A DNA stretch of 64,000 nucleotides from Naegleria gruberi (taxonomy: Eukaryota). The stretch lies in NCBI GenBank assembly GCA_000004985.1, contig GG738864.1, one strand, 5' to 3'. The notes below the pieces were generated by a model. The model saw nothing but the letters and a program-made list of their open reading frames with translations. It did no database searches and was not told the DNA's origin. A program made the position numbers and the translations under genes. Positions 5,179 through 46,672 of this stretch are shown here, in pieces; the stretch's first letter is position 1; every line of letters begins with the position of its first letter.

Positions 5179-5309
5179 TCTTTTTTGTCAGTGTTTTGAT
5201 GAATATTGTTGGTGGAGCTCTCTCTCGTTCCAAGTTTTCATTCTTCCTTCCATAATTGAGGAGCAACAATTAAAACATGTCATCAATTGCTTTGAATTGT
5301 TGCAGACTA

Positions 5310-14344: not shown

Positions 14345-17300
14345 TTAAGTATCTTCCTCCTTAACAGTGTAGAGGTGAGAATGTTTGTATACATGTCTAA
14401 GTTGTTCCTTAAGGAGATTGAATGGTTTTTGATGTTGTTCAATCTCAGAGTTGTGATTCATGCATTTTTCAATTAGATTCTTGCTGATATCTTGTAAGGT
14501 ATATCCAAATGATTCTCTATATACTCTAAAGAGTTTTGGAAGGATAATTATATTATTGGATTGAGAAGTAGAGTTGTTGAAATTGTTAATAATTTTGATG
14601 TTTTGTAGGAGGAATAATTCTGTTTCCTTTCTGACAAATGATTCATAGTTTTCTGGAGTAATGTATGGGAATAAAGTACAACAATTTCTCATTCTCATAT
14701 TCTTGAATTGTTGTGAGTTTGGAAGGATAGATATTTGAGATTTTTCATTCCACAATAGCTCACCATATCTGTACATTATAAATATCAATCTCAAATCAAC
14801 ATAATTAGAGTAGAAAGAAATAAATCGTGATCTTCTATCAAAAGATTTCATACCATTCCCATTCAAAACATTGATTGGAGGAGCTAACAATTTACTAGAG
14901 CCAACAATATTTTTCTGGTCGTGAGACATATCTGTAACAATACCATTAGGATAGCTCTTGTTTCCTCTCAAAATTCCATCACGAATGTCAGAAAGTGAAA
15001 ATATCAAGCCATCAACTTGATAAGCCATTCTATTATAGAAAATGAAAGTGGCATTATTTCCCACTAGTCTATACTTGCTGCTAGATCCCATTATCAATAA
15101 AGAATGATAGAATAGTGTTAAGAATAGGTTCAAAAAGAAACATCTGAATCTAACTCGTTCATTCTTTTCTTCATGAACATCCATAAGACTAGAAAGATCA
15201 ATTCTTGATAATTCATGGCAAAGAGGAAGTAACTGAGTTAGGTAAATGTGGTTTGTACACACAATTTTTCTAGAATGTTGGGATACAGTCTTGAAGAAAG
15301 TGGCATTTCGGAAATTATACTTTTCATATTTAGGGAATATTCCTTGATACATTTGTCTTAGGTATTCCATTAATTTGTAAAGAACTGCATTAGGTTCACA
15401 CCTATATGGAATGTTTTCAATCGATTCAGGATATGAAAATACGTCACTAATAGGTAAACTCATGTTAATAACTCGGATTGGGTTATCATTACTAAATCTA
15501 TACAAATAATAGCCATCAATAAATGATAGCCCATAGTTAACATGGTGAATAATGTTGGACTCAAGGAGAAGTTGATAGAATTCAACTGCTTGCTTTCTAC
15601 TTTCCATATTAATTACAACAAATGGTTGGCTGAGATCATTATTTTGGGTGTTGTTAAAATTCAAAAGCAAATCTATCGCCTCTTTAGATTCGAAACATTT
15701 TCTGTAAATCTTTCCTTTCAATAAATTATACAATGAAGTTGAATAATTACTTTGCTTTGGGTAACGAACTCTATCCAGTAGGGTAAGGTTATTCTTCAAA
15801 TAGGCTATTACAACTTGAATGTGTGAAACTAACTGATCAATATCGTGTGCCAATGGAAAGAATTTTTTAAGCTTGTTCAATACAATAATATCGTCCTTAT
15901 AGAGAAGAACCAATGAATTGATAGCAGAAAGTGGACCATCTACAATATTATTCTTAGGCTTCTTATCATTGGATGTAACTTGCTTGTACATATTAATCTT
16001 TGAAACCTCTTTCTTATTCAGGAATGATACATCATATTGATACTTTACATATTGGCCATAAATGGTTTGGTTATGAGCTGGTACAATATAAGGGGTTATT
16101 GATTTGGATTCAAACTGATTTTCAATAAAGTATTGAGAAATATATTCATCATATTCCTGTGATCTTTGAACTGATTGATCACTAATATTCTTTTCCTCAA
16201 TTAATTGGTTATTAAATTCGGTGGTATAATTAGAATACATATCCATATCATAACTAGGAATAACATTTCTTTCTATACATTTTCTTGCTTGTAAATTATT
16301 GTAAATAGAATTAACATCTACATTATAGAAATCTCTCAATACTTCAAATGAAATATTTGGATACTCATTACTCATTTTACCTTCTAATGATCTCAAAATT
16401 TCTCCCTGAGGAAGAACAGTTGTAGAGCCATTCTCGTTGAGAGTAAGCTTCATAGAGTTCATAATACTCTTAAGGATTTTTTCATTCTCTGCCACATTAT
16501 CAGAAGGTGTTGGGATTGGTGAAGTAGGTGATTTTTCTTGTTTCTTTTCGTGTGTCTTATTCTCCATTTCTTTCACTGGAAGAACTGATTCGATTTCATC
16601 TTCAACTTCAGAGTTAATAGTCAAAGAGAGCTGATCTAGCCTTTCATCACTCAGGTCTGTTATTTGTCTTGGATTATATGTTTCATCAAAATAGAGCTGG
16701 GAGGTAACTTGATTAGATACTTCCTCTTCATCATCTGAGTCATCAGAGTAATCGTCACAAGAGTCTTCTTCATCAGTAATCATACTTAAATCCCTATCAT
16801 CGTGTAAATAAATATCACCACTTTCCAAATCCCACAAATGTACTCCAAACAATCTAATGTGGAAACTTGGTTTATAGTTACCCAAAAATATATTGATAGC
16901 ATGTTGTTTCCACTCATCTTTAAAGTTACTACTATAATATCTTTTCATATTTGTCATTAAATCAGCCAAAACACCTCCTCTATTGTGAATATCAACACTA
17001 ACTGTTCTACTTCCACTGTATTGAATAGCAATATGGTCACTAACTTGTTCATACATTTGCATTAAAATTAAAATGAATTGACCATGGTGAACAAGATGAG
17101 GTGATTCAATAATTCCCAGTGAACATAATTGTTCTCCAAGAACATATTTGGCAATAATAAATTGAGCTACACCTGTTCTATCAAGACAATCAATACAATT
17201 AGTTCTTAAAACACCAGATTGTTCCTGTATCACTTTTCCATACTTGGATGTTGTGAAAAATTTACATTGTCTTACATGATTTTCTGCAATTGCATGGAGT

Positions 17301-19090
17301 TCATTCAATGCCTTTTCAGGTTTGTCTTTAATTGCATTCCTGAAATCAAATGGAACATATTCTATATGCTTCTTTTGTTTGAATGGTTCTTCATTTTTGT
17401 AAATATTCCTGTTAAGATATTCTATGCAAATCTTGAATTTTTCTCCCAATATTATTTCTCTTGGTTTTTTCTCGTGCTGTTTCACTAGATCCAGACACAT
17501 GATTGGAGAACCTTCGTATCTTTCGAATAGGTTATTGAAATGATGCATACTATCCAGATAGAGAGGATCAAATTTTGTAATAATAATATTAGGTTTTGAG
17601 AGTAGGTTTGATGTGGATGCTTTTGTTGTGGTAGTAGTAGTATTCTTTTGATCGTTTTCATCGACAGTGGTCGTGGTAGTGGTCATTGTTGTAGTGGTAG
17701 CAGTAGATTGAGACCAATATAGAGGAATACTTCCTCTCACTTGAACAAAGCTACTAAATGCACCTTGAGATTGATTATTGAATAAATGGTGATTTGCTTC
17801 ATAAACTATTTGCTCAATTTCAACATGATTGGCCACATGACCTCCATCTGAAATACCTCGTTTAAGGTATCTAGTACCAGCATAATATCGACTTCTCCTT
17901 GCAATAACTGTCAATACAATAGATATATTACTGTTACCTGTTTTAATTTGATTTTTCTGGAGTGTTTTGTTGAATTCTTCATGTTGAGAAGGTTTCATTA
18001 ATTCCTTTGAAGAGTTTCTTTTAACTGGCACTGGTTTGGTATAATCAGCAAGAGCCATTGAAACCTTGGATTGAATAAAGTGGCCATGAATGCATGGACA
18101 CATCCATTTAGACATTTTCGTCCTCTTCAATGGTTCAAGAAGATGTGAATTCCAAACAAACATATCACATGTTGTGTTTTTTGGTTCATCTCCATAAGTC
18201 ACTATTGGTGTAGAGTTTTGTTGCAATGTTTTTGTGAGATCATAGTTATAACTAAAGTAAAAATCCTGATTCAAATTAATATTATTAAATAATTCCTTAT
18301 ACTTGTCTTCGATTAACTGTTCTTGTTTTGAAAGGTTGTCATGCATAGATAATTTCACTAATTTAGTATCTTTAATTTCATAGACACTAGCATTACCAAT
18401 CATTCCAACTTTAAGTCTATCCGTTATCAAAACCAAATAATGATGAGATTTGAGTTCAATAAACCCCAAAATGCCATAAATATTATTAGTATGGAGTTTG
18501 ATATCTTGTTGAATACTCTTCATTGCAAATTTTATCATGTGCAATAGATCATTGATTTGTTTCAAGCTATACTCTCCAGCATCTTCATTTAAATAATTGA
18601 CAATGTCACAATCAGCTCCATTGGGTCTATCAATTTTTAACATTTTATACTTTGTTTTTGATCCATTGCATCCAACAAGATAAAATCTATTATATGCCTC
18701 GTATAATGTAAAGTTGCTATACTTTTCACCAAATGTAAAATCAATTTTACTATATTCACATTCAAATGATGAATTAAATTCCTGTTGAGGAATATCGTCT
18801 CCTCCCGTCTGAATATCCGTATCAGAATTGGTTGTGATGGGCTGAAATGATGAAATTGGAGGTTGAATTGGTGATGATGGTTCCACTACTTGTTCTTCAA
18901 CATTTCTCATTCGGGATTGATCTAATATTGGCGAATCATCATTGAATTCGTAGGTTGGTGATTTTTTGGATTTTTGATCACCATAGGGTGTGTTCTTTTG
19001 TGGGCTCGTATTTGAAGATGAAGGAACGAGCAACCTTTTGATGAACATTTTTTTTGTTAAAAAATCTTTTAAAGAAGCACTTAATATCAT
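14345..19090 (-). CDS. SAC-domain phosphoinositide phosphatase, very large (1581 aa) with long S/N-rich extensions
   Basis: Sac catalytic motif RTNCIDCLDRTG (CX5R) and upstream RYYAGTRYLKRGISDGGHVANHVEIEQIV. Single uninterrupted ORF. Confidence 0.75.
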   Translation of the reverse strand: MILSASLKDFLTKKMFIKRLLVPSSSNTSPQKNTPYGDQKSKKSPTYEFNDDSPILDQSRMRNVEEQVVEPSSPIQPPISSFQPITTNSDTDIQTGGDDIPQQEFNSSFECEYSKIDFTFGEKYSNFTLYEAYNRFYLVGCNGSKTKYKMLKIDRPNGADCDIVNYLNEDAGEYSLKQINDLLHMIKFAMKSIQQDIKLHTNNIYGILGFIELKSHHYLVLITDRLKVGMIGNASVYEIKDTKLVKLSMHDNLSKQEQLIEDKYKELFNNINLNQDFYFSYNYDLTKTLQQNSTPIVTYGDEPKNTTCDMFVWNSHLLEPLKRTKMSKWMCPCIHGHFIQSKVSMALADYTKPVPVKRNSSKELMKPSQHEEFNKTLQKNQIKTGNSNISIVLTVIARRSRYYAGTRYLKRGISDGGHVANHVEIEQIVYEANHHLFNNQSQGAFSSFVQVRGSIPLYWSQSTATTTTMTTTTTTVDENDQKNTTTTTTKASTSNLLSKPNIIITKFDPLYLDSMHHFNNLFERYEGSPIMCLDLVKQHEKKPREIILGEKFKICIEYLNRNIYKNEEPFKQKKHIEYVPFDFRNAIKDKPEKALNELHAIAENHVRQCKFFTTSKYGKVIQEQSGVLRTNCIDCLDRTGVAQFIIAKYVLGEQLCSLGIIESPHLVHHGQFILILMQMYEQVSDHIAIQYSGSRTVSVDIHNRGGVLADLMTNMKRYYSSNFKDEWKQHAINIFLGNYKPSFHIRLFGVHLWDLESGDIYLHDDRDLSMITDEEDSCDDYSDDSDDEEEVSNQVTSQLYFDETYNPRQITDLSDERLDQLSLTINSEVEDEIESVLPVKEMENKTHEKKQEKSPTSPIPTPSDNVAENEKILKSIMNSMKLTLNENGSTTVLPQGEILRSLEGKMSNEYPNISFEVLRDFYNVDVNSIYNNLQARKCIERNVIPSYDMDMYSNYTTEFNNQLIEEKNISDQSVQRSQEYDEYISQYFIENQFESKSITPYIVPAHNQTIYGQYVKYQYDVSFLNKKEVSKINMYKQVTSNDKKPKNNIVDGPLSAINSLVLLYKDDIIVLNKLKKFFPLAHDIDQLVSHIQVVIAYLKNNLTLLDRVRYPKQSNYSTSLYNLLKGKIYRKCFESKEAIDLLLNFNNTQNNDLSQPFVVINMESRKQAVEFYQLLLESNIIHHVNYGLSFIDGYYLYRFSNDNPIRVINMSLPISDVFSYPESIENIPYRCEPNAVLYKLMEYLRQMYQGIFPKYEKYNFRNATFFKTVSQHSRKIVCTNHIYLTQLLPLCHELSRIDLSSLMDVHEEKNERVRFRCFFLNLFLTLFYHSLLIMGSSSKYRLVGNNATFIFYNRMAYQVDGLIFSLSDIRDGILRGNKSYPNGIVTDMSHDQKNIVGSSKLLAPPINVLNGNGMKSFDRRSRFISFYSNYVDLRLIFIMYRYGELLWNEKSQISILPNSQQFKNMRMRNCCTLFPYITPENYESFVRKETELFLLQNIKIINNFNNSTSQSNNIIILPKLFRVYRESFGYTLQDISKNLIEKCMNHNSEIEQHQKPFNLLKEQLRHVYKHSHLYTVKEEDT

Positions 19091-19104: not shown

Positions 19105-19980
19105 TTATTTATCAGAATTTGAATCATTGGATGGTTTCCTATTCGAATACGAATATTGAAGTGCAAATTTAACACAACGTTGGAAATAATGACCTTCCCA
19201 AAAGAATTTTTTGCAAGTTGGACATTTTGTGACTGTTTGACCGTACAGATCATAAATTCGTTTTCCTCCCATAATTTTGGTCAATTCTTGAATTTCTTCT
19301 TCAGTAGTTGCTTTGATACACTGTACAGGATCGTTGCATTTCAAACATCTGGTGTAAATTTTTGCTGGATGAAACATGAGGTGGAATGATTTTACAATAT
19401 CTGAAATTGAGTCATGAAACTCAACTTTTCTTGAATCAATGAAAAGATATCGAATTTGTTTTGTTTCCTCATTATTCGAATTTTCTTCATTTTCTTCCTC
19501 GTCACTATCATAATAATCTTTCACTTTTGGTTTAGTTCCCTTGTTTTCACTCTTAATTTTTGAAGCCAAAGAAGCAGATCCAGTAACTATTATTCTATTC
19601 TCTGATCTAGCTTTATAAATAATATAATTCGTGGAATAGGATGGATCACTAATACAATCATATCCCAGTAATCTGATATGTTTGGCAATTTTTGAAATAC
19701 TTGTATCAGCAATAAATTTTGTATTTCGGAAAAAGCCATTAATTTCAGTTTGTTCTTCCTCAGTACAATCCACAAGAGGTTTATCTTGTTTTAAAACTCC
19801 CTTCGGAAATGTAAAATTCGATGTTTGTTCATTATTCTCCTTTTCCTCTTGATTCAGTACGAGAGAATTTGTTTGATTGATAATAGACATCATTTCTTCA
19901 TCCAAAAATTCATCTTCCTCTCCATTTGCTTGTTCGTCCACATTCCGAGCCTCCATCATAGGTTCATTACTTGCTAACAT
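19105..19980 (-). CDS. Mut7-C / PIN-like RNase domain protein with a C-terminal zinc ribbon, 291 aa
   Basis: IAKHIRLLGYDCISDP...RIIVTGS resembles the Mut7-C motif (LaRwLRlLGyD...RilLTrD). C-terminal CLKCN...CPTCKK Cys pairs. Its stop lies only 14 nt upstream of the SAC gene ATG on the same strand. Confidence 0.55.
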   Translation of the reverse strand: MLASNEPMMEARNVDEQANGEEDEFLDEEMMSIINQTNSLVLNQEEKENNEQTSNFTFPKGVLKQDKPLVDCTEEEQTEINGFFRNTKFIADTSISKIAKHIRLLGYDCISDPSYSTNYIIYKARSENRIIVTGSASLASKIKSENKGTKPKVKDYYDSDEEENEENSNNEETKQIRYLFIDSRKVEFHDSISDIVKSFHLMFHPAKIYTRCLKCNDPVQCIKATTEEEIQELTKIMGGKRIYDLYGQTVTKCPTCKKFFWEGHYFQRCVKFALQYSYSNRKPSNDSNSDK

Positions 19981-20207: not shown

Positions 20208-23200
20208 TTGAAAAAAATGTCCACCGTCATAGCAAAGAGCCTTCAATTCAAATTTTATTCGGACGAGGATATTGAAAAATTGTCAGTTCTCGAAGTTGAT
20301 AATGCTATTACACACGATGAATTCCAAATACCTGTGCGGGGAAGTTTATATGATCCAAAGATGGGTCTTAGGGACAATGATGGACCAATGGCAAGATGCG
20401 AAACTTGTGGATTGGTGAATACATTCTGTCCTGGACACTTTGGTCATATAAGTATTCCACAACCTGTTTTTAATGTATTGTTAAAAACCGACGTAACACA
20501 AGTTATGAATTTATGTTGTCCTTTTTGCGAAAAGTTGCATATACCAAAGGAAGAAAAGACAATATTATATTTGGTTTTGAGACTCTTAGATTGTGGATTA
20601 CCTTCCGAAGCCATGGAGTTAAACGATAAACCTCTCATGTTTTTGAGAAAGTACGGAAATGAACAAGAGGAAGAACCTATGAGCGAAGAGGAAGCAGAAG
20701 AAGGTAAAAAGAAAAAGAAGAAAAAGAAGAAAAAACTTGATTTGGAAACTGAACACTACAGATTTGAAGATGATTATCAAAAGCTTGTCTCAACTACTTT
20801 AGGTCTTATCCAACAACAAATTTTAAAATACGACGTGTCGAATGAATTGGAGCTCCATTCAAAATTCTTAAATGACGAAATTGTCTTTGATTTAAAACAT
20901 CAAATCAAGGAAAAGATTATGAAGACACATGCCCATCCACCTCTTTCCAAGATTAAGACTACAGGTTGTAGAAATTGTAAAGCTGTAAGAGTTCCATTTG
21001 CTATTCTCAACAAGGATTGTGTTGCTTTGCACGAGACTACTGTTGTTAATTTTGAATTTTTGAAAGCTCTTAAGGAATGGCATGGTAAATGTATCCACAA
21101 GGATTATGCTGACAAGAGTTTATTCGATGATGTGGACCAAGTTGATACCGTTCTTAAAAAGAGAATTGAAAAGCCATTCTGTTTAGCTAATAATTTCCAC
21201 TTGATGACAACTAAAATTTTGAAGGAAACTACTTCACTTTTCTATAATTACCTTCACACTGATGAAGTAGTAGATATGCTTGACCGTGTTTATTATAATG
21301 GTATTGAAACAGCTCTCAATGAAGTTTTATTCAAGATGGATATCAACAATGAAGAAGAACATTTATTTGATCTTATTGCTGGAAGTATCCAAGATAATAG
21401 AATCAGATATATGGATTCTTATATTTTACACTCCTTTTTTGATAACAGTCCTGCTCTCATGTTTACTAAGAAGGTTTTGGTGATGCCAGTTCGTTTCAGA
21501 CCAATTTCTCCTCTTCATATTGCTGCTAAGGAAGAAGGTAAAACTATGGTTACCTACGTTAAAACTGATATTGATATTCACTACATTAACGTTTTAAAGA
21601 CAAAGAAACTTTACGAAGATATTCAAGCTAAATTGGGAACAAGTACTATCAGATCTGATAACACAGCTATTGCTGTTTTGAGAGCTCTCCAATGTTACAT
21701 TAACGATATGTTGGACAGTACAAGTAATACTTCTTCTGGGTCAAATAGATTCTACTCATCACTTCTTAAGAAGAAGAAAACATCTACTACAACTTTGAAT
21801 CGTGGTATGAAACAATTGATGGATAAAAAGGCTGGTTTAGTCAGACAATCTATGATGGGTAAGCGTGTCAACTACAGTGCTCGTACAGTTATTTTGCCTG
21901 ATGTTGCTATTGCTTGTAATGAAGTCAGTTTCCCAGCAATGTTTGCTAAGAAGATGACATTCATGGAAACTGTCACTAACTTTAATATTAACAAGATGAG
22001 AGAATTAGTTATCAATGGTGCTAAACAATATCCTGGTGCTAATCAAATCGTTAAGAGTGGTAAAACTCAATCTGATGTTTCTTCCTCAACAGCTGTTGCT
22101 CCATATACTCGTCCTCCACTTTCAATTCAACTTAATGTTGTTAAATCAAAGAAACAAAGAGTTGCTATGGCTAATCAATTGCAAGTTGGTGATGTTGTCT
22201 ATCGTCACCTCCAAGATGGAGATATGTTGTTGATGAACAGACAACCTTCATTGCACAGACCTAGTATTTTAGCTCACAGAGCTAGAGTTATTGCTAACCA
22301 ACGTGTTATGCGTCTCCACTATGCCAGTTGTAAATCTTTCAATGCTGACTTTGATGGTGACGAAATGAATGCTCACTTTGTACAAAACCCAATTGCTCAA
22401 AGCGAAGCTCGTCAATTAATGGATGCTCAATTGTCTTTCTGTACTCCTACCAGTGGTGAACCATTGCGTGGCTTAATTCAAGATCACGTTTCATCTGCTG
22501 TCTTGTTGACTATGAAAGATAACTTTTTATCTCGTGAAGATTATCAAGAAATTTTGCTCAGTGCTAACATTTTTGATGTCAATGAAGTCATTCGCTCTGA
22601 AATTCCATCCATTTTGAAACCAACACCTTTGTGGACTGGTAAGCAAGTTATTACAAGTCTTTTGAAGCATGTTGCCAAGAAGAATACTCCAGCTGGTGCT
22701 CCAGTTTTTGGTGTCAATTTGGATTGTAAGACTAAGGTTAAAGGTACTGTTTGGGGTGCTCACAACGAAGAAGGAATGGTCATTATTAGAGATAACGAAC
22801 TCTTGACTGGTATTTTTGATAAGTCTCAAGTTGGTTCTTCAAAATATGGTATTTTGCACGCTTTTGATGAATGTTATGGTAACAACGCCAGTAATATGCT
22901 CATTTCATGTTTATCAAGAATGTTAACTTTCTACTTGCATTACTTTGCCATCAGTTGTGGTATTGATGACTGTCTCCTTTCCAAGTCTGCTGAAGCTAAC
23001 CGTATTGAAACTTTGAAAAACTCCAATGAAGCATGTCATCATGCTACTGCTTCCTACTGTGGTCTCCCAAAGAAGAAGGATGCTTCACAATATGATCACG
23101 ACAAGGTTAAGGAATTTTTGGCCAAACATATGCTTAACCCAACTGTTTCTAAACAAACAGGTGAAATTATCAATGAAAAGATTGTCCGTAAATTGGATTC

Positions 23201-25484
23201 AACTGTCAAGAAGAGTATTAACAAGTTCACAACAAAGGCTATCAATGATTCTATTCCTATGGGTCAATACAAGGCTTTCCCATACAATATGCTTTCACTC
23301 ATGACTGAAACTGGTGCCAAGGGTTCTATGGTTAACTCTTCACAAATTGCTGTCTGTTTAGGTCTTCAAGAATTTGAAGGTAAACGTGTTAACGTTCAAG
23401 TTAAGAGTGGTAAGACCCTGCCATCATTCGATTCTTTCGATTCAAACAATATTGCTAACGGTTACGTTGCTAGTAGATTCTTGACTGGTATCAAGCCACA
23501 AGAATTCTTCTTCCATTGTATGGCTGGTAGAGATGGTCTGATTGATACTGCTGTCAAGACAGCTCGTAGTGGTTACTTGCAAAGATGTTTGATTAAGCAC
23601 TTGGAAGACCTTTCCGTTCAATATGATGGTACTGTCAGAAATGGAAACAAGACAGTCGTCCAATTCTCTTACGGTGGTGACCATATTGATCCAATCAAGA
23701 CTGGTTATATGACTCAATTCGATTTCATGAGAATGAACCAAGATTTACTTTCTCAAAGATATAATGAAGAATCAGCTATTCAATACACTAAGGATGTTAA
23801 GGAATGGCAAGAAAAGACTAAGAATGCCACATCTACTATTTATAAGAACGACTTTGTTCAAATCGAAGATCCATGGAATTATTTGGGTGGTGTTTCTGAT
23901 GCTTACGATAAGAAGCTCAAGAAGTACATTGAGGCAACTAAGACCACTACTTTGTCTGATACAAAGAAGAAATTCGACCCAGAACGTATCAAGACATTGG
24001 CTCATCTCAAATATCTCCGTAGTTTGGTTAACGCTAGTGATCCAGTTGGTATTATTGCTGGTCAATCTATTGGTGAACCTTCAACACAGATGACTTTGAA
24101 CACTTTCCACTTTGCTGGTTTGGATATGGCTCACGTTACAGTTGGTATTCCTAGATTGGTTGAATTGTTGATGAGAGGTACTACTCGTGTCCTCACAATG
24201 AATGTTCCAGTTAAGAAGGAATGCGCTCAATACCAAGTCGAAAAGATTTACCAATATGCTGATAGTATTTCAAAGTTGCCATTCTTCAGAGTTTTGACTA
24301 ACATGGACATTCAAGAACAATTCAAGTTCTCCGTTGACGTTAAGCGTAAACAAATTTCAGTTTCTCTCTTCTTTGATATGAAGGACATTACTGAATACTA
24401 CCAAATTTCTAATGATGTTTTTGACAAGAAGGTTCAAACTCTTCTCATCTTGTTAACAGCAAGAATTGTTTCTCCAAAGAAGCTCATGTACTCTAGAATG
24501 AAGGCAATGTTATCCAAACTTGCCAGTTTTGGTGGTACTGGTGCTGTTGCTGATGGAGCTGCACCAGCTGAGGCAGAACCTGAAGAAAACAAGGAAGCCA
24601 CACCAATGGATGCATTCATGGGTACTGATACAGCTGAAATGATGAAAGAGGATAGTGATGAATCCAATGTAAAGAAACCTAAGAAGAAGAAAAAGAAGAG
24701 TGATAGCGACGACGAAGATGAAGATAATGACGAAGATGAAGAAGAAAAGAGATCTAAGAGAAAGAAGAAGAGGGATGAAGAAGAAGAAACACAAATTAAT
24801 AATGATGAAGGCCTTTCTGGAGAAGACCTTTTCATTAAGACTTTCGGATCTGCTTTGGGTGAATATGATGAACATTCTATCAATGCTAAGGAAGGTGTTG
24901 TCACTTTCACATTTACTCAAAAATCAGATGCTGGTAAGGTTTACATTGCTGAAGGTATTCAAGATGTTTTGAAGAATTGCTTCTTACAAAGTGTTGACGG
25001 TATTGAAAACGTTACAGTTGTTCCAACTAATGATGGATACGATCTTTCAATTGAAGGTTTCAACTTTTATGCTTTGCACGCTCTTCCAATGTCCCATGAA
25101 TTGCTCGACCTCAATCGTTTGGTCACAAACAATGTCAACATTATGAACGACCATTATGGTATTGAATCAGGATACGGATTGATTGTTAAGGATGTTTCTT
25201 ACGTCTTTGACATGTACGGTATGGAAGTCAGTCCAGCTCACATTCAATTGATTGCTGATTACCTTACATATCGTGGTTACTATTCCTCATGTAACAGATT
25301 TACCATTAAGAACAGCCCTTCAACATTCTACCGATCTTCTTTCGAACAAGCTTGTCAAAATCTCTTGAAGGCTGCTGTCAGAAGCGAAACTGATACTATG
25401 GTTTCTCCAACTGCTCGTGTTGCCTTGGGTACACCTGTTAGTGTTGGTACTGGCAGTTTTGATTTGTTGCTTGTAAATAAGTAA
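20208..25484 (+). CDS. RPA1: DNA-directed RNA polymerase I largest subunit (A190-like), 1758 aa, no introns
   Basis: N-terminal zinc motif CETCG...CPGHFGHI and catalytic YNADFDGDEMN. No C-terminal heptad CTD, so not Pol II. Length and acidic/lysine-rich insertions (KKKKKKKKKK; DSDDEDEDNDEDEEE) are typical of Pol I A190. Confidence 0.8.
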   Translation: MKKMSTVIAKSLQFKFYSDEDIEKLSVLEVDNAITHDEFQIPVRGSLYDPKMGLRDNDGPMARCETCGLVNTFCPGHFGHISIPQPVFNVLLKTDVTQVMNLCCPFCEKLHIPKEEKTILYLVLRLLDCGLPSEAMELNDKPLMFLRKYGNEQEEEPMSEEEAEEGKKKKKKKKKKLDLETEHYRFEDDYQKLVSTTLGLIQQQILKYDVSNELELHSKFLNDEIVFDLKHQIKEKIMKTHAHPPLSKIKTTGCRNCKAVRVPFAILNKDCVALHETTVVNFEFLKALKEWHGKCIHKDYADKSLFDDVDQVDTVLKKRIEKPFCLANNFHLMTTKILKETTSLFYNYLHTDEVVDMLDRVYYNGIETALNEVLFKMDINNEEEHLFDLIAGSIQDNRIRYMDSYILHSFFDNSPALMFTKKVLVMPVRFRPISPLHIAAKEEGKTMVTYVKTDIDIHYINVLKTKKLYEDIQAKLGTSTIRSDNTAIAVLRALQCYINDMLDSTSNTSSGSNRFYSSLLKKKKTSTTTLNRGMKQLMDKKAGLVRQSMMGKRVNYSARTVILPDVAIACNEVSFPAMFAKKMTFMETVTNFNINKMRELVINGAKQYPGANQIVKSGKTQSDVSSSTAVAPYTRPPLSIQLNVVKSKKQRVAMANQLQVGDVVYRHLQDGDMLLMNRQPSLHRPSILAHRARVIANQRVMRLHYASCKSFNADFDGDEMNAHFVQNPIAQSEARQLMDAQLSFCTPTSGEPLRGLIQDHVSSAVLLTMKDNFLSREDYQEILLSANIFDVNEVIRSEIPSILKPTPLWTGKQVITSLLKHVAKKNTPAGAPVFGVNLDCKTKVKGTVWGAHNEEGMVIIRDNELLTGIFDKSQVGSSKYGILHAFDECYGNNASNMLISCLSRMLTFYLHYFAISCGIDDCLLSKSAEANRIETLKNSNEACHHATASYCGLPKKKDASQYDHDKVKEFLAKHMLNPTVSKQTGEIINEKIVRKLDSTVKKSINKFTTKAINDSIPMGQYKAFPYNMLSLMTETGAKGSMVNSSQIAVCLGLQEFEGKRVNVQVKSGKTLPSFDSFDSNNIANGYVASRFLTGIKPQEFFFHCMAGRDGLIDTAVKTARSGYLQRCLIKHLEDLSVQYDGTVRNGNKTVVQFSYGGDHIDPIKTGYMTQFDFMRMNQDLLSQRYNEESAIQYTKDVKEWQEKTKNATSTIYKNDFVQIEDPWNYLGGVSDAYDKKLKKYIEATKTTTLSDTKKKFDPERIKTLAHLKYLRSLVNASDPVGIIAGQSIGEPSTQMTLNTFHFAGLDMAHVTVGIPRLVELLMRGTTRVLTMNVPVKKECAQYQVEKIYQYADSISKLPFFRVLTNMDIQEQFKFSVDVKRKQISVSLFFDMKDITEYYQISNDVFDKKVQTLLILLTARIVSPKKLMYSRMKAMLSKLASFGGTGAVADGAAPAEAEPEENKEATPMDAFMGTDTAEMMKEDSDESNVKKPKKKKKKSDSDDEDEDNDEDEEEKRSKRKKKRDEEEETQINNDEGLSGEDLFIKTFGSALGEYDEHSINAKEGVVTFTFTQKSDAGKVYIAEGIQDVLKNCFLQSVDGIENVTVVPTNDGYDLSIEGFNFYALHALPMSHELLDLNRLVTNNVNIMNDHYGIESGYGLIVKDVSYVFDMYGMEVSPAHIQLIADYLTYRGYYSSCNRFTIKNSPSTFYRSSFEQACQNLLKAAVRSETDTMVSPTARVALGTPVSVGTGSFDLLLVNK

Positions 25485-25589: not shown

Positions 25590-27794
25590 TTATCTTCTTT
25601 TATAGTAACTGTTATTATTGCCACCACCATAGCTTGAGTGATAACCTCTTCTTGCACTGGTATTCACACAATCTCTCAAATACTTTGCAATAGATGAATT
25701 ATCATATAATGTACCTATTCCGACATAGTCAAAGTATTGTTTGAAAGATGAAACATTTTGAATCTTGAAAACTTCACGTTGTAACACATCTTCCAACAAT
25801 TCACCACTCTTTGTCTTTGGAGGACAGCCAAAGTTTGTATCGTACAATCTTCCAAATTCTTCCAAGGAGAGATCACTATATTCTTCAACAATGTTTCTCA
25901 AAAAGAAGACGTGGAACATGATCAATTTGCAGGAAACTTGGTTTGCTTCCCATGATTTGATACATCTTTCAGAGTCCATTTCGTTGAATCTAGCCAATCC
26001 AGGATGCATCTTGATAACCCACAATGCATTTCTAATTGAGGTTTCTTCAACAACAGAGGTCTTAATTGAGTTCCATGTTAATTTACTTGGACCCAGAACT
26101 GAAAGCTTTGGAAGGAATTCTCCAAGATTTGGACAGGAGCTCTTTAATCTAGCGCTTTCAGAGTTCTTGAATTGATTGACTTGATACTTTAAACGATCCA
26201 AAGCTTGTGGGAATTTTTCAATCAAGTAAATTAACCAACGATGGAAGTACATGTAACCGTAGAGAGCTTTGATTGAGGCATGAGTATTACCTTTCATAAT
26301 TTCAACAACCATAGTATTCATCAACTTGCACATCAATTCAATATAAATTGTTGCATTATCTAAGGATTCAGAGCTTGAAATTGAAGGATAAGCAATTTGA
26401 ATTTTCATCACTGACTGTTTCAAAATCTCAAAGTTACCATGCTTTCTGTTGATAAATACTGGGATCCAGTGAGAGAAACATCTTCCCCAGACACTCTTTC
26501 TGACATTCTCCTTATAGAAGGAAGTGTGAGAGAGAAGATCCAGAGGAGTTGAAATTGAGGCAATTGTGCCATCTTTCTTAGTTTCGAAAGATAGACCAAC
26601 ACCAAGTGTATCCTCATTAAATGTTTCCTTAGAGTGGAAACACACTAATTCTCTGGCTGTAGACAAGAATTTGTGTTCACACAAATCATAGAGATATTTG
26701 CTAGACTGTTCAACTCTCTTCAATTCAATAATATTAAGATAGCTGAGAGTGTGTAAAATCAATTCGTTAGGTAAGTCTTTGAGATGCTTCTTTGGTTCAG
26801 GAGTTTTCTTCAACATGCTTACAGCAATTAGGTTTTTGGAAGGTTGCGCAGGAGAAGCTGTTTCAATAATGGTTGATGATTCAACTGCAGACTTTTTCTT
26901 TTCCATCTTTTCTTGAACTTTCTTCAATCTGTTCAGTTTCTTTTTCTTGTTCTTTCCAATGTAGTTTGGATCCTTGGCTTCATCTTGAGATGGTTTTGGT
27001 TGTTCTTCCTTCTTGGCAACAACCTTAGTTGGATCAACATATTGAAAAGGAATATCCCAGGCATTTGTGTTGACTGGAACTGCTTTAGGTTCTGGTTTGG
27101 TTTCTACTGGTTTAGTTTCAGCTATTGTTTTAGGTTCTACAGGTTTAGTTTCAACTTTTGGTTCAACCGTCTTTGGAGTTTCTTTCTTTGGAACTGGCTT
27201 GACCACAGGTTTGTCTTTCTTTAGAACGACAGCTTTAACAGGTTGTGGAACATACTTTGAAGCAAGAATTTCTGAAACATTCCAATAAGGAGCACATGGA
27301 TATATGGTTCCCTTTGTTGGATTGTGTCCAGTTGTGGAATTAACATATTTCCTGGAAGCGTCAATATCACTCTGTATATATCTTTCCTGTCTATCCTCTT
27401 CTTCCAATAAGAATGATTGTAATTGCAACAAGATTGACAAACAAGAGTAACTTGTACTCCAACCCATGTATGGAATATCGTCAAAATAGTGAGCTTTCAA
27501 CATGTCCAAGCAGATCCACCCACCAAAAACGTGAGAGTGATGCAATTGAGTAAGGCAAGCAATTTGTGGAGGTTCATTAGGATAATCCTTTGGAAACTTG
27601 ATATCCAATACAACAATAATTCCATGATACTTGGATGTCTTTGGAGCTAACACAGTTGCATACCAATGAAACATGTCTCCTTGAAATGGCTCAGCATAGA
27701 CAGTTTCTAATGGATTCGATTGAATTTCCTTCAAGTCTCTCGTTATTCTTTTGAGAGCAGAAGAAGGGAGAGCCTTCGAGCTGCTGCTATTCAT
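25590..27794 (-). CDS. Ubiquitin-conjugating (UBC/E2) domain protein with a long Pro/Lys/Thr/Glu-rich linker and an F-box-like motif, 734 aa
   Basis: N-terminal UBC fold with catalytic Cys context HSHVFGGWICLDMLK. Repeats KPVEPK/KPVETK. F-box-like LPNELILHTLSYLNIIELKRVEQSSKYLYDLC. Confidence 0.55.
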   Translation of the reverse strand: MNSSSSKALPSSALKRITRDLKEIQSNPLETVYAEPFQGDMFHWYATVLAPKTSKYHGIIVVLDIKFPKDYPNEPPQIACLTQLHHSHVFGGWICLDMLKAHYFDDIPYMGWSTSYSCLSILLQLQSFLLEEEDRQERYIQSDIDASRKYVNSTTGHNPTKGTIYPCAPYWNVSEILASKYVPQPVKAVVLKKDKPVVKPVPKKETPKTVEPKVETKPVEPKTIAETKPVETKPEPKAVPVNTNAWDIPFQYVDPTKVVAKKEEQPKPSQDEAKDPNYIGKNKKKKLNRLKKVQEKMEKKKSAVESSTIIETASPAQPSKNLIAVSMLKKTPEPKKHLKDLPNELILHTLSYLNIIELKRVEQSSKYLYDLCEHKFLSTARELVCFHSKETFNEDTLGVGLSFETKKDGTIASISTPLDLLSHTSFYKENVRKSVWGRCFSHWIPVFINRKHGNFEILKQSVMKIQIAYPSISSSESLDNATIYIELMCKLMNTMVVEIMKGNTHASIKALYGYMYFHRWLIYLIEKFPQALDRLKYQVNQFKNSESARLKSSCPNLGEFLPKLSVLGPSKLTWNSIKTSVVEETSIRNALWVIKMHPGLARFNEMDSERCIKSWEANQVSCKLIMFHVFFLRNIVEEYSDLSLEEFGRLYDTNFGCPPKTKSGELLEDVLQREVFKIQNVSSFKQYFDYVGIGTLYDNSSIAKYLRDCVNTSARRGYHSSYGGGNNNSYYKRR

Positions 27795-28501: not shown

Positions 28502-30417
28502 ATGAAACAATCACTCTTGCTAGTTGTTGCTGTTTGTTCCGTGATGGCAATGTTATTGTCATCATTGGCCGTGGCACAAACTGAAAAGGATCATCTCGTT
28601 ACAACTCTCCCTGGTTATAAGGTATGTTTGTTTTATTGCATGGATGCTGATATGCTGAACCATTGACAATAATGCACGGGCAAATTATTCACAAATATTC
28701 ACTCTTGTATGAATTTTAATAATAATTAATAATATAGGATGGTAGAACACCACTTCCATTCAAATCATATACTGGTTATTTATTGGCAAATCAAACTAGA
28801 GGCCATTACTTGTTTTATTGGTTTTTTGAAGCTCAAACAAATAGTGACACAGCTCCTCTTGTTTTCTGGACAAATGGTGGACCAGGTTAGTAGTATAATC
28901 TGTTGTGGCATTCAATATTTTCTATGAAAATCATGCAATTTTTTTATGATATGGAACTATACAGGCTGTTCAAGTCTTGGAGGAGAAGCCAGTGAACGTA
29001 TGTATTTAAAAGTTATTATCAATTGAGGATCATTTAATATTATATAGATGGATTTTTACTTGTCAATGCTGATGGTGCTACTTTGAGAGAAAATCCATAC
29101 AGTTGGAATAGAAAGGCCAATATGTTGTACATTGAACAACCTATTGGTGTTGGTTTCAGTTATTCAAATCATACTTCTGATTATGGAGTTGTCAATGATG
29201 TGATGGCTGCTTCTGATATGGCTAATGCTTACAGAGATTTCATTAAGAGATTCCCAAAGTTTTTGAATAGAGATGTTTATTTGTCAGGTGAAGTAAGTAT
29301 ATTCACACATTGAATGAGATTGAATTTCTTACCAAATAATAGTCTTATGGAGGAGTTTATGTTCCAACTACTGCAGCTGAAATTATTCAAGGAAACCAAA
29401 ATGGACAAGTCCCATACATTAATTTGAAGGGTATTTTAGTCGGAAATGGTGTTACAGGTATGTTTACTGAAATGTTAAATTCCATAACAATTATTTCTAG
29501 ATGCTGAGGCTGACGCAAATAGCATTCCACCAATGATGAAATATCACAGTTTGATCTCTATCAAGTATTACGAGCAAGGTTTTGCTGCATGCAAGGGTGA
29601 TTTCTTTAACAATCAAAATGTTCCAGCTTGTGCTCAATTTTTGGACCAAAGTAACAATGTCATGGGTAATATTAACCCATACTACATTTATGACAGCTGT
29701 CCATGGTTGGGTATTACTTCTCAAAAAGCCAAGATTTCATTCCAAGAAAAGAAATTCAATGTTTTGAATGAACAAGGAAAGAAAGTCGATGTTCATCCAC
29801 TTTTCCAAATGTACAAACATGGTGGTTGGTCAAAGAGAGTTGCATTGCAATCAAATTCTAAGGTTAGAATGGAGTCTGACAGTCCATGTGTTCCAAATCA
29901 ATCCATTGCTAAATATTTCAAGAGATTGGATGTCCAAAAAGCCCTTGGTATTCAACACGGAACTGTTGATCCAAATGGTTGGGATATCTGTACCAATGCC
30001 ATTAATTATACTCAAGTTTATCCAAGTATTCTTCCATTCTATACAAAGTTGTTGCAACACATTAGAATTCTTGTTTTCTCTGGTGATGTAGACATGGTAA
30101 GTTCTCCATATTTCTAATTGTTTTTAATAATTACTAATTTTAATATTTTAATTCCATAGGTTGTTAACTCTTACGGAACTCAAGCTGCTATTGATAAATT
30201 GCAATTGCAAGAAACTTCATCTTGGAGAACTTGGGAACATGAAACAGTTACTGGAACAGTTGTTGGAGGATATATCAGAAAGTTTGGACCAGGCGGAAAG
30301 AATGGACAAGGATTGACCTTTATTACCATTAGAGGCGGTTCTCACATGGTTCCTATGGTGAAACCAGAAGCTGCTCTCACCTACTTTACTAAATTCTTGG
30401 ATGGTGATTGTTGTTAA
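28502..30417 (+). CDS. Secreted serine carboxypeptidase, peptidase family S10 (CPY-like). Seven exons: 28502-28621, 28738-28885, 28965-28997, 29048-29292, 29343-29457, 29501-30096, 30160-30417
   Basis: Signal peptide [26 protein letters not shown]10 motifs [25 protein letters not shown], active-site GESYGG, DxD (FSGDVDM), GGSHMVP. All six introns are GT(A/T)(A/T)GT..YAG and phase-consistent; intron 6 carries a TACTAAT branch motif. Confidence 0.9.
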
Positions 30418-44132: not shown

Positions 44133-46672
44133 ATGTCTTCACTGTATAGACCAGCTAAGATTATTGATAGAGATGGCAAGGAGGACAAGACCTACCTGAC
44201 TGATGTGATTCATACATCGGATTCTGTGGTGTGGAGTGGTGATGATGAAGATAGCAGCAGCAATAATGGAAAGAGTCATTCTAAGAGGAGTAATTATTCA
44301 TTGTTGTTTTTTGCAATGGTTGCCCTCCTGTTATCGGTGTATATTTATCAAAGTGATGGAATTAATACAATGAAGAGTGTTGTGAGTTCTGTGATACAGG
44401 ATTCAAATGCTAAAGCTATTAGAAACAAACCACAAAAAGTTCATACAAAAAGATCAAATTTTGTGTCTAAACCAAAAGTTCAAAAATCCGAGCGTTTATA
44501 TGATGTAGTTGATTATGTATATAATTGCAGTAATGATCATTCTGTTACTGAATTGCCTGGTTATGGATCTATTTCAAGAGAAGACGAATCTCTTTATTCA
44601 TTTGCTGGTCATTTATCAGTCCATAGAGAGGATACTAATAAGGACAGATTTGGAGCTTTGTTTTATTGGTTCTTTGGTAGAAAGGATTCTGAAAGACCAA
44701 TCATGCTCTGGCTTCAAGGAGGTCCATCAGCTTCAAGCATGATTGCAGGTATGTTTACAATGAATTTTGAAATAATTTTACAATATTAGCATTTGAGGAA
44801 TTTATTTCACCCTTCTATATTAGTAATTCAACAAATCAATTGAATTTACATTATAATAATCAGTCATGGATTTCACAATGTGATTTATTATTTATTGACC
44901 AACCTGTTGGAGCTGGTTTCAGCTATGAATATCCTACAAATGATTTTACAACCACTAGACATCAAGTATCAAATGATTTATACAGTGTATTACTTAACTT
45001 TTTTGATAAATATCCACAATTCAGAAATAGAGATTTGATTTTTGCTGGAGAAAGTTATGCTGGAAAGTATTTGCCTTCTCTTGCTGAGAGAGTTTATTTA
45101 CTCAAGATGGAAGGAGACGAACCAACTTATGAACCTGTTCAAAAGCATGGTATTCACAAGAGACTCAAAGGTATTATTATTGGAGATGGGTTTACTGCAC
45201 CAATTGTTCAAAGAGTTTTGAAAGCAGATCAAGCTTACTGGAGTGGACTTCTTGGATATCAACAACGTCAACAATTGAAAACCTTGCAAAGAGATTGTGT
45301 CAGACACATTCAAGAGGGAAACACTGTTGAGCTTGGATCTGCATGTGAGGCTGTCAAGTCTTATATTTTAATTGCCTCTGGTGTTATTAATATTTATGAT
45401 ATTAGAACCTTTTCTCCTTCAACTGATAAACCTAGATTGGAAGGCTATCTCAATCAACCAGATGTTAAGAAAGCCCTTCACATTCTTGATAGAGACATTC
45501 CAAACAAACCAGAAGACATCAAATTTTGGTCAACTCGTCCACATCCTGTCTACGACTACCTTAAGGCTGATATTTTGACGGATTTGAGAGATTTGTTACC
45601 TCAAATTGCAGAAAGAACTAAATTATTACTCTATGGAGGTAATTTCGATTTGCAGGATGGACCTCAACCTATTGAAAGATTTTTATTAACAATTAATGAC
45701 CCAATGATTAAGAGATGGGTTGAAGCTCCAAGAAATCTCTTCTTTGTAAATAACAAAGTTGCTGGATATGAAAAGAGCTCTGGAAACTTTTCCTTAGTGA
45801 CAATTTTCGGAAATGGCCACTTTGTACATAGTCAAAAGGACTCTATGAGAGCTTTACTCAAAAAGTTTATTGCCCTAACCTATCAGCCAACTGCTGATTT
45901 GTCATTCTGTTCTGAAAGTGAAACCATTCCTGTAAGGTTCAAGACTCTAACTCCTTCTACCTTCCTCAAATATTTGTACGATAACGAAACTATGGAGCAC
46001 AGAATTCCATGTCAAAGTCAACAATTGATTTGTGAAAAGATTTTGAAGAATTGTAATGGACACGGTACTTGTGTTCATGGATATTGTAAATGTATTCCTG
46101 GATATACTGGAGAAACATGTGAAAATGTGGTTCAAGTCATTCCAATTGGATATGAATCTGAGGAACCATTCGTTATGAAACAACAAGAATTATTCTATGG
46201 AAAAGTTCATTTGGAAGAAAGAAAGGCCATTACAACAGTGCAAGTAAATTGGAGACCAAAGGAAGTGAATGAATTTGACCAACCTCTAAAAGCACCAAAC
46301 TACAAGTATGATTCAGTTTCCAAACCATCATCCAAGATGTGTTTGATTATTAAAAGAGGCTCTCTTCCAAAGATGGATGATTATGACAAAGTTCATTGTA
46401 AGGACTCTCATTTGGATGGTCCTCTTTTAGTTGTTTCGAATAGTACTCAAACTGAAGAAATGAAAGGAAGATTATTCTTTGGAATTGTCAACACACAACA
46501 ATATGAAGTTGAGTGTGAATTGAAAGTTTTATCATGGAATCAAGAGTATTCTGTATTCTTACTGGACGAAACTGTTTCAAAGTTAAATAACGAGAGAAAT
46601 TTCCTTCTAGGAAGCACCATTCTTCTGCTAATAATTGTAATTATTGGTGGATTCATGTTAAAATGTAAATAA
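44133..46672 (+). CDS. Membrane-anchored S10 serine carboxypeptidase-like protein (Kex1-like) with a C-terminal EGF-like Cys motif and a terminal TM helix. Exons 44133-44748 and 44790-46672, intron 44749-44789 (GTATGT..TATTAG, 41 nt)
   Basis: N-terminal hydrophobic anchor YSLLFFAMVALLLSVYIY. S10 motifs WLQGGPSASSMIAG|AFEEFISP...IDQPVGAGFSY, active-site GESYAG, LLYGGNFDLQDG, FGNGHFVH. EGF-like CNGHGTCVHGYCKCIPGYTGETCE. C-terminal TM LLGSTILLLIIVIIGGFML. Junction phase verified. Confidence 0.75.

What the first reader, a model, noticed from the sequence alone, without database searches (positions are those of the whole stretch)
25590..27794. Unusual architecture: E2 (UBC) catalytic domain, then a long KP/ET-rich linker, then an F-box-like motif in one polypeptide
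E2 enzymes and F-box adaptors normally sit on opposite sides of the SCF ligase. A single protein carrying both would be an E2 that docks to Skp1 directly. The UBC active-site Cys context is intact (GGWICLDML), so it is potentially catalytic.
Basis: partly seen in the sequence, partly recalled or inferred. Interest (0 to 1): 0.6.

Follow-up and report, generated by a model that had tools for sequence, protein, structure and literature searches.

The report
E2, F-box and UBR4-like module fused
This Naegleria gene encodes one protein that joins a ubiquitin-conjugating (E2) domain, a genuine F-box and a large C-terminal domain shaped like the E2-binding ligase module of UBR4, and it belongs to a large protist family that we did not find described in the paper library we could search.

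Summary
Window 25590-27794 (- strand) is one uninterrupted 734-codon ORF, identical to an annotated Naegleria gruberi protein. It has:
- a UBC/E2 domain (Pfam E=2.6e-21, Cys95 present);
- a disordered linker of about 150 residues rich in K, P, V and E;
- an F-box (PF12937 above its cut-off; superposes on Skp1-bound F-boxes at 0.8-1.7 Å).

A profile of this domain finds 2,835 cluster representatives. Among the 160 examined, it is almost always joined to this UBC type, with or without an F-box. Members come from Heterolobosea, Amoebozoa, Anaeramoeba and a diatom.

Best reading: a self-contained E2/E3 hybrid that the F-box hooks to Skp1. The domain composition is solid. The mechanism is inferred.

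The parts
25590..27794 (-). Complete single-exon ORF of 734 aa plus stop codon, equal to the annotated N. gruberi 'ubiquitin-conjugating enzyme family protein'.
   Evidence: 100% identity, 100% coverage, same length.
27255..27761 (-). UBC (E2) domain with its C-terminal extension, residues 12-180.
27510..27512 (-). Codon of the catalytic Cys95 (context WICLDML).
   Evidence: Cys is kept in 100 of 105 family UBC domains.
27531..27539 (-). H86-S87-H88 at the position of the canonical E2 HPN triad.
   Evidence: Alignment to UBE2D. In the family this position is N in 55 and H in 39 of 103 sequences.
27324..27341 (-). Residues 152-157 (NSTTGH), a degenerate copy of the family-conserved C-x2-C-x-H knuckle that follows the UBC core. 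Only the His is retained here.
   Evidence: Family counts: C152 93/109, C155 85/108, H157 101/108.
26787..27245 (-). Disordered linker rich in K, P, V, E and T, residues 184-336. It includes a basic helix at about residues 281-302 (KKKKLNRLKKVQEKMEKKK), which may be a nuclear localisation signal (inference).
   Evidence: Composition. pLDDT below 50 for 184-274 and 297-336, with a helix at 281-302. A weak 27-nt tandem repeat lies at 27079-27130. Linker length is highly variable among homologues.
26661..26780 (-). F-box, residues 339-378 (KDLPNELILHTLSYLNIIELKRVEQSSKYLYDLCEHKFLS).
26436..26657 (-). Beta-rich N-terminal subdomain of the C-terminal domain, residues 380-453. It is hemiRING-like but lacks the C2HC ligand set. 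It contains the invariant Cys385 (codon 26640-26642) and the near-invariant His452.
   Evidence: AlphaFold strands. 291 of 353 residues of 8btl_A align, which is more than the 235-residue UZI part, so at least about 56 aligned residues fall in the hemiRING part (with boundaries from PMC10873205). Conservation: C385 149/149, G398 154/154, P445 157/157, H452 150/156.
25629..26435 (-). Helical bundle, residues 454-722, with 11 major helices. It is UZI-like.

Best explanation
The gene encodes a three-part ubiquitin enzyme from a large family that we did not find described in the searchable literature.

1. An N-terminal UBC domain, presumed to be charged with ubiquitin on Cys95.
2. A long flexible linker followed by an F-box that docks the protein to Skp1.
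3. Directly after the F-box, a domain of about 340 residues with the fold of the UBR4 hemiRING-UZI E3 module.

Proposed mechanism. The C-terminal module binds the protein's own UBC~ubiquitin, in cis or in trans within an oligomer. This is what UBR4's module does with UBE2A. Together they make a self-contained E2/E3 hybrid. The F-box then places this unit on Skp1, either inside a Cul1-Rbx1 SCF complex, which would then have a built-in E2, or in a cullin-independent Skp1 complex.

Shown here: the three domains, their order, their conservation and the fold relationship.

Inferred only: ubiquitin charging, UBC-to-CTD contact, Skp1 binding and cullin involvement.
For: Domains are confirmed by Pfam and PDB sequence searches.

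UBR4's module binds E2 through the hemiRING and activates E2~Ub through the UZI subdomain (PMC10873205).

The CTD profile finds 2,835 cluster representatives. Of the 160 examined, 114 also match the family's UBC profile and most of the rest are short sequences, probably fragments (inference). One subfamily has only 11-37 residues between UBC and CTD, followed by LRR and RRM domains. This argues that UBC and CTD are the functional pair, and that the F-box or LRR-RRM parts are interchangeable targeting add-ons.

The catalytic Cys is kept in 100 of 105 sequences.

The F-box lies 2-5 residues before the CTD, as in canonical F-box proteins, and matches Skp1-bound F-boxes.
Against: - The HPN asparagine is His and the proline is Ser, which could impair catalysis.
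- The UBR4 zinc ligands (C4838, C4841, H4887, C4890) have no clear counterpart set. Only Cys385 and His452 are conserved in that subdomain.
- No di-Gly element like UBR4 G4979/G4980 is evident.
- There is no sequence-level link to UBR4 or to Pfam. The relationship rests on AlphaFold models built from 14-17 sequences.
- The F-box score is modest. PF00646 falls below its cut-off, the usual Trp of helix 3 is absent, and the F-box has low pLDDT in the full-length model.
- No coordinates or PAE were available, so UBC-CTD docking could not be examined.
Confidence: 0.5

Rival explanations
1. It is a conventional SCF substrate receptor with a tethered E2. The C-terminal domain binds substrates, as WD40 or LRR domains do in other F-box proteins. 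The UBC domain on its long leash works with Rbx1. The UZI-like fold is only a scaffold.
For: The F-box-then-domain order is the canonical receptor layout. The hemiRING zinc ligands and the di-Gly element are not conserved. A disordered linker of about 150 residues could span an SCF complex.
Against: The CTD co-occurs with this UBC type even where no F-box is present, with linkers of only 11-37 residues. Those proteins carry separate LRR-RRM domains that look like the actual recognition modules. The only strong structural relative of the CTD is an E2-binding module.
Confidence: 0.2
2. The UBC domain is a catalytically impaired pseudo-E2. It serves as a ubiquitin-, E3- or CTD-binding module, and the protein acts as a regulator or scaffold rather than an enzyme.
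For: H-S-H replaces HPN. The active-site loop 97-110 carries an insertion and has low pLDDT. Pfam matches only positions 1-113 of the 140-position UBC model. The Naegleria/Willaertia clade has also lost the C-x2-C knuckle.
Against: Cys95 is kept in 100 of 105 family members, including all those with His at the Asn position (39 of 103), which suggests selection on the thiol. Known UEV-type pseudo-E2s lack the Cys (established knowledge).
Confidence: 0.13
3. The F-box is a degenerate relic that no longer binds Skp1. It serves as an intramolecular cap or an oligomerisation element for the CTD.
For: The Pfam score is marginal, PF00646 is below its cut-off, and the conserved Trp is missing. The F-box abuts the CTD, and its confidence is higher when modelled with the CTD alone (73-87) than in the full-length model.
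Against: The Leu-Pro and hydrophobic core positions are conserved across the family. Superposition on Skp1-bound F-boxes is at 0.8-1.7 Å with 23-39% identity. Most homologues pass Pfam F-box models.
Confidence: 0.12
4. It is an annotation or assembly artefact. Two neighbouring genes, an E2 and an F-box protein, are joined by an accidentally open low-complexity spacer or an unrecognised intron.
For: The linker is low-complexity, fast-evolving and weakly repetitive.
Against: The reading frame is continuous for 734 codons. The same order is found in three further Naegleria/Willaertia species, in two full-length N. gruberi paralogues, in single assembled transcripts of several Amoebozoa, and in a diatom gene model.
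Confidence: 0.02

Closest known systems
UBR4 hemiRING-UZI E3 module (human UBR4 residues 4831-5183, PDB 8BTL; PMC10873205)
   Different: Identity is only 10-12%, with no HMM-level similarity. The C2HC zinc ligands and the Gly-Gly non-RING element are not recognisably conserved. There is no UBR box or giant scaffold. The partner UBC is closest in structure to UBE2J2, UBE2G2 and UBE2D, not to UBE2A/B.
Canonical F-box proteins (Skp2, FBXL2, Fbw7, Fbx4)
   Same: A three-helix F-box with the Leu-Pro start and hydrophobic core, followed directly by a folded C-terminal domain.
   Different: The domain after the F-box resembles an E2-binding ligase module, not a WD40, LRR or other substrate receptor. 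An E2 domain lies upstream in the same chain.
E2/E3 hybrid enzymes UBE2O and BIRC6
   Same: These are large single polypeptides in which a UBC domain is combined with regions that confer E3-like function.
UBR1-3 RING-UZI / yeast Ubr1 (PDB 7MEY)
   Different: The similarity is much weaker than to UBR4. Ubr1 has a full two-zinc RING.
UBE2J2/Ubc6 and UBE2G2/Cdc34-type E2s
   Different: HPN reads H-S-H. The PxxPxP-type loop after helix 2 is replaced. There is no transmembrane anchor or acidic tail. A family-specific extension follows, which is C-x2-C-x-H in most members.

Membership tests
UBC / E2 superfamily (Pfam PF00179) | UBC fold recognised by profile and by structure | tested here: met
UBC / E2 superfamily (Pfam PF00179) | Catalytic cysteine at the conserved position | tested here: met
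   Cys95 aligns with UBE2D Cys85. It is conserved in 100 of 105 family members.
UBC / E2 superfamily (Pfam PF00179) | His-Pro-Asn triad upstream of the Cys | tested here: not met
   H86-S87-H88. More distant family members keep HPN.
UBC / E2 superfamily (Pfam PF00179) | E1-dependent thioester formation with ubiquitin or a Ubl | not testable with these tools
   Needs biochemistry.
F-box proteins | Profile match above the curated threshold | tested here: met
   PF12937 26.2 bits against 24.3, E=6.7e-6. PF00646 19.6 against 20.5, just below.
F-box proteins | Three-helix F-box fold superposable on Skp1-bound F-boxes | tested here: met
F-box proteins | Binding to Skp1 | not testable with these tools
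   No multimer prediction or experiment was available, and the N. gruberi Skp1 sequence was not retrieved.
UBR4-type hemiRING-UZI E3 module | Two-subdomain fold (beta-rich finger plus 11-helix UZI bundle) | tested here: met
UBR4-type hemiRING-UZI E3 module | Sequence or profile membership (Pfam UBR4 C-terminal family; HMM similarity to the 8BTL sequence) | tested here: not met
   No Pfam hit at E<=1 for 14 members. The CTD profile does not hit 8btl at E<=10.
UBR4-type hemiRING-UZI E3 module | C2HC zinc site (C-x2-C ... H-x2-C) | tested here: inconclusive
   The subdomain has one invariant Cys (C385, in C-x-H) and a near-invariant H452, but no C-x2-C or H-x2-C. A family-conserved C-x2-C-x-H lies before the linker, but it is lost in this protein. 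No coordinates were available to check geometry.
UBR4-type hemiRING-UZI E3 module | Binds an E2 and promotes the closed E2~Ub state (Gly-Gly non-RING element) | not testable with these tools
   No residue-level superposition was available. No obvious GG in the loop between helices 1 and 2 (residues 469-481).
UBE2O / BIRC6 E2-E3 hybrids | Homology of the non-UBC regions (CR1-CR3 of UBE2O; BIR and armadillo scaffold of BIRC6) | tested here: not met

The most novel reading that the evidence does not exclude
UBC plus the hemiRING/UZI-like domain is an ancient, covalently fused E2-E3 catalytic unit, found in Discoba, Amoebozoa, Anaeramoeba and stramenopiles. UBR4's 'atypical' ligase module would be the free-standing relative of this unit.

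In this lineage the K/P/E-rich linker and the F-box would have been inserted between the first zinc knuckle (C-x2-C-x-H, directly after the UBC core) and the rest of the finger (C385-x-H). The result would be an SCF receptor whose 'substrate-binding' domain is itself an active E2-E3 machine.

That arrangement would amount to an E3-E3 super-assembly encoded in one gene.
Probability: 0.3. Interest if true: 0.85.

Novelty: new variant of a known kind. Interest (0 to 1): 0.66.

Why it matters
E2s and F-box receptors are textbook examples of separate SCF components. Here they are fused to each other and to a fold so far known only from the ligase module of UBR4, with distant relatives in UBR1-3.

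If the C-terminal domain binds and activates its own UBC domain, three things follow:
- The family is a natural single-chain E2-E3 that plugs into Skp1.
- The hemiRING-UZI fold is an old and widespread E2-handling module, not a UBR4 peculiarity.
- There is a small, tractable model for an E3 module that is hard to study in the 574-kDa UBR4.

The family is large, with at least 2,800 clusters at 50% identity, and includes members in pathogens (Naegleria fowleri, Balamuthia, Acanthamoeba). No member from animals, fungi or plants appeared among the roughly 25 family members whose source could be read. That would make it a lineage-specific ubiquitin enzyme of possible practical interest.

Tried and rejected
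- Sequence-level link between the CTD and UBR4. Pfam scans of 14 members and a profile search of all PDB sequences at E<=10 found nothing. The relationship is structural only.
- A word-indexed profile search added few members and no UBR4-like proteins.
- Literature searches on E2/F-box fusion, Naegleria, UQ_con architectures and UZI/hemiRING found no description of this architecture. One attempt failed on term length.
- Gene-fusion artefact was rejected on ORF continuity and cross-lineage conservation.
- A residue-level mapping of the UBR4 zinc ligands and the Gly-Gly element was not possible. Neither model coordinates nor the 8BTL sequence could be obtained.
- UBC-CTD docking in the full-length model could not be inspected, because no PAE or coordinates are returned.
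- Membership in UBE2O or BIRC6 was considered and rejected.

Full report
**What is there**

Window 25590..27794 on the minus strand is one uninterrupted ORF of 734 codons starting with ATG. It is 100% identical over its full length to the GenBank protein 'ubiquitin-conjugating enzyme family protein [Naegleria gruberi]'. The window is therefore Naegleria gruberi nuclear DNA, about 33% G+C.

The gene lies tail-to-tail with an RNA-polymerase largest-subunit paralogue at 20208..25484. The neighbouring genes are functionally unrelated. Gene context is not informative in a eukaryote.

**Checking the observation**

- **UBC domain.** Pfam finds UQ_con at residues 16-134 (E=2.6e-21). PDB sequence search gives UBE2D1-3 at about 2e-20 and aligns Cys95 with the UBE2D catalytic Cys.
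- **F-box.** Pfam finds F-box-like PF12937 at residues 339-375 (E=6.7e-6, 26.2 bits against a gathering score of 24.3). The classical PF00646 model falls just short, 19.6 against 20.5.
- **Linker.** The intervening 153 residues contain 35 K, 21 P, 18 V, 15 E and 11 T. They are predicted disordered except for a basic helix at 281-302.

One correction is needed. The alignment to UBE2D shows that the HPN triad is H86-S87-H88, so the active-site context is not fully canonical. There is also an insertion of about 9 residues right after the Cys, where the alignment to UBE2D breaks and the model is uncertain (pLDDT below 50 for residues 97-110).

**Is the fusion real and conserved?**

The same UBC, F-box and C-terminal domain order is found in:
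- N. gruberi paralogues NAEGRDRAFT_59412 and _65426;
- N. lovaniensis, N. fowleri, Willaertia magna and Acrasis kona;
- single assembled transcripts of the amoebozoans Cavostelium, Pellita, Pyxidicula and Protostelium;
- Arcella, Mastigamoeba and Balamuthia;
- the diatom Seminavis robusta.

Linker length varies from a few tens to several hundred residues. An intron or two-gene artefact is therefore excluded for practical purposes.

Residues about 380-722, nearly half of the protein, are the best-conserved region of the family (45% mean column identity). They match no Pfam family.

A profile of this domain searched against 1.84 billion cluster representatives finds 2,835 proteins at E<=1e-3 and 1,023 at E<=1e-30. 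I examined 160 sequences, namely the 17 first hits plus the new ones among the best 150 of that search, using family-specific HMMs. Of these, 114 carry the family's UBC domain upstream. Most of the rest are short sequences, probably fragments (inference). 61 have a detectable F-box immediately before the domain.

A separate clade has no F-box and only 11-37 residues between the UBC domain and the C-terminal domain. In its members the core is followed by RNI-type LRRs and an RRM. Members include Anaeramoeba, Acrasis and Percolomonas.

The constant pair is therefore UBC plus this C-terminal domain. The F-box and the LRR-RRM look like alternative add-ons.

**What the C-terminal domain is**

According to PMC10873205:
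- The module consists of a single-zinc 'hemiRING' (residues 4835-4948; ligands C4838, C4841, H4887, C4890) that binds the E2.
- It also has an 11-helix UZI subdomain (4949-5183) that stabilises the finger and helps close E2~Ub through G4979/G4980.
- The authors found no similar fold in the PDB.

The Naegleria domain has the same layout, a beta-rich subdomain (380-453) followed by 11 major helices. Because 291 aligned residues exceed the 235 of UZI, part of the hemiRING is matched too.

At the sequence level there is no detectable similarity, and the C2HC ligand set is not recognisable. The subdomain has one invariant Cys (C385, 149/149, in a C-[FY]-[HYF]-[ST]-[KR] motif) and a near-invariant His452 (150/156).

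The fold relationship is therefore strong. Common ancestry is likely but unproven, and conservation of the zinc site and of the E2-binding function is open.

**The UBC domain in family context**

The catalytic Cys is kept in 100 of 105 sequences. The Asn of HPN is Asn in 55 and His in 39 of 103. All three full-length N. gruberi paralogues have His.

Retention of the Cys in the His-bearing members argues for a working thiol rather than a UEV-like pseudo-enzyme, but this is inference.

Most family members carry a C-x2-C-x-H knuckle right after the UBC core (93/109, 85/108, 101/108). The Naegleria/Willaertia clade, including this protein (N-S-T-T-G-H), has lost both cysteines.

**Most likely mechanism**

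*Shown.* One polypeptide holds an E2 domain with its Cys, a Skp1-type F-box, and a domain with the fold of an E2-binding and E2-activating ligase module. The E2 and the module are an evolutionarily fixed pair.

*Inferred.*
- The module binds the tethered UBC~Ub, in cis or across an oligomer, giving a self-contained E2/E3 hybrid.
- The F-box docks this unit on Skp1, either within Cul1-Rbx1, which would make an SCF with a built-in E2-E3, or in a cullin-free Skp1 complex.
- The disordered linker of about 150 residues gives the UBC domain the reach to cycle between E1, the module and possibly Rbx1.

I put about 0.5 on this overall picture.

*Rivals.*
- The C-terminal domain is an ordinary substrate receptor with a tethered E2 (0.2).
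- The UBC domain is a pseudo-E2 or regulator (0.13).
- The F-box no longer binds Skp1 (0.12).
- The fusion is a gene-model artefact (0.02).

**Comparison with known systems and novelty**

The protein works like, but is not a member of, the E2/E3 hybrids UBE2O and BIRC6, with which it shares no homology outside the UBC domain.

It meets the F-box profile and fold criteria. It meets the UBC criteria except for HPN. It meets the fold criterion of the UBR4 module, but not the sequence criterion, and the zinc-ligand test was inconclusive.

Database records already flag UBC and F-box Pfam domains on this protein, so the co-occurrence is recorded. Five literature searches found no description of the architecture, the family or its link to UBR4.

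I rate it a new variant of known kinds (E2/E3 hybrid and F-box protein) with above-average interest.

**Limits**

- The structural inferences rest on AlphaFold models from shallow alignments of 14-17 sequences.
- No coordinates, PAE or multimer predictions were available, so UBC-CTD and F-box-Skp1 contacts are untested.
- Only the top 150 of the 2,835 hits could be inspected. Absence from animals, fungi and plants is therefore suggested by the sampled names, not demonstrated.

Noticed in passing
window 27324-27341 (residues 152-157); family members P0009, P0010, P0048, P0127 and others: Most family members have a conserved C-x2-C-x-H knuckle directly after the UBC core (93/109, 85/108, 101/108). 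This protein and its Naegleria/Willaertia relatives have lost both cysteines. In short-linker members the knuckle lies about 30-45 residues before the invariant Cys385-x-His motif. That spacing is reminiscent of the two zinc knuckles of UBR4's hemiRING, so the site may be a split or shared zinc site.
   Followed up: partly
window 26640-26642 (Cys385): This Cys is absolutely invariant (149/149) at the very start of the C-terminal domain, in a subdomain that otherwise lacks a zinc-ligand set. It could be a relic metal ligand or a functional thiol. This is unresolved.
   Followed up: partly
P0089, P0064, P0082, P0127, P0056, P0159 (related proteins, not in the window): A second recurrent architecture in the same family is UBC, C-terminal domain, RNI-type LRRs and an RRM, about 1,200-1,400 aa, with no F-box. 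It occurs in Anaeramoeba ignava, Acrasis kona, Percolomonas and metagenomes. It may be an RNA-linked E2/E3 hybrid.
   Followed up: partly
window 26889-26966 (residues about 277-302): A strongly basic predicted helix (GKNKKKKLNRLKKVQEKMEKKK) lies in the otherwise disordered linker. Similar basic patches occur upstream of the F-box in several homologues. It may be a nuclear localisation signal or an E2-affinity element like the unresolved region upstream of UBR4's hemiRING.
   Followed up: no
window 20208-25484 (+): A 1,758-aa single-ORF RNA polymerase largest-subunit paralogue has Rpb1 domains 1-5, no heptad CTD, and long poly-K and acidic insertions. It is convergent with the E2 gene, and the two stop codons are only about 105 bp apart.
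   Followed up: partly
window 14345-19090 (-) and 19105-19980 (-): A 1,581-aa protein combines a Sac1-homology phosphoinositide phosphatase domain with DEP and DUF547 domains. Only 14 bp separate its ORF from that of a 291-aa Mut7-C RNase-domain protein at 19105-19980 on the same strand.
   Followed up: partly
window 57934-60522 (+): An 862-aa ORF encodes a low-complexity protein rich in N, T, S, Q, H and P with no Pfam match. It coincides with the strongest strand compositional skew in the window (AT skew +0.30, GC skew -0.18).
   Followed up: no
window 44840-46672 (+) and about 29083-29313 (+): There is a serine carboxypeptidase S10 with teneurin-like EGF modules at 44840-46672. A second S10-like fragment ([11 protein letters not shown] motif) lies just downstream of the E2 gene and appears to be split by introns.
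   Followed up: no
P0100 (NAEGRDRAFT_76881) and P0020 (N. fowleri FDP41_009268): These are shorter gene models. One is 233 aa, 80% identical to part of the C-terminal domain. The other is 474 aa with an F-box and CTD but no UBC. They may be truncated annotations or genuine UBC-less paralogues.
   Followed up: no
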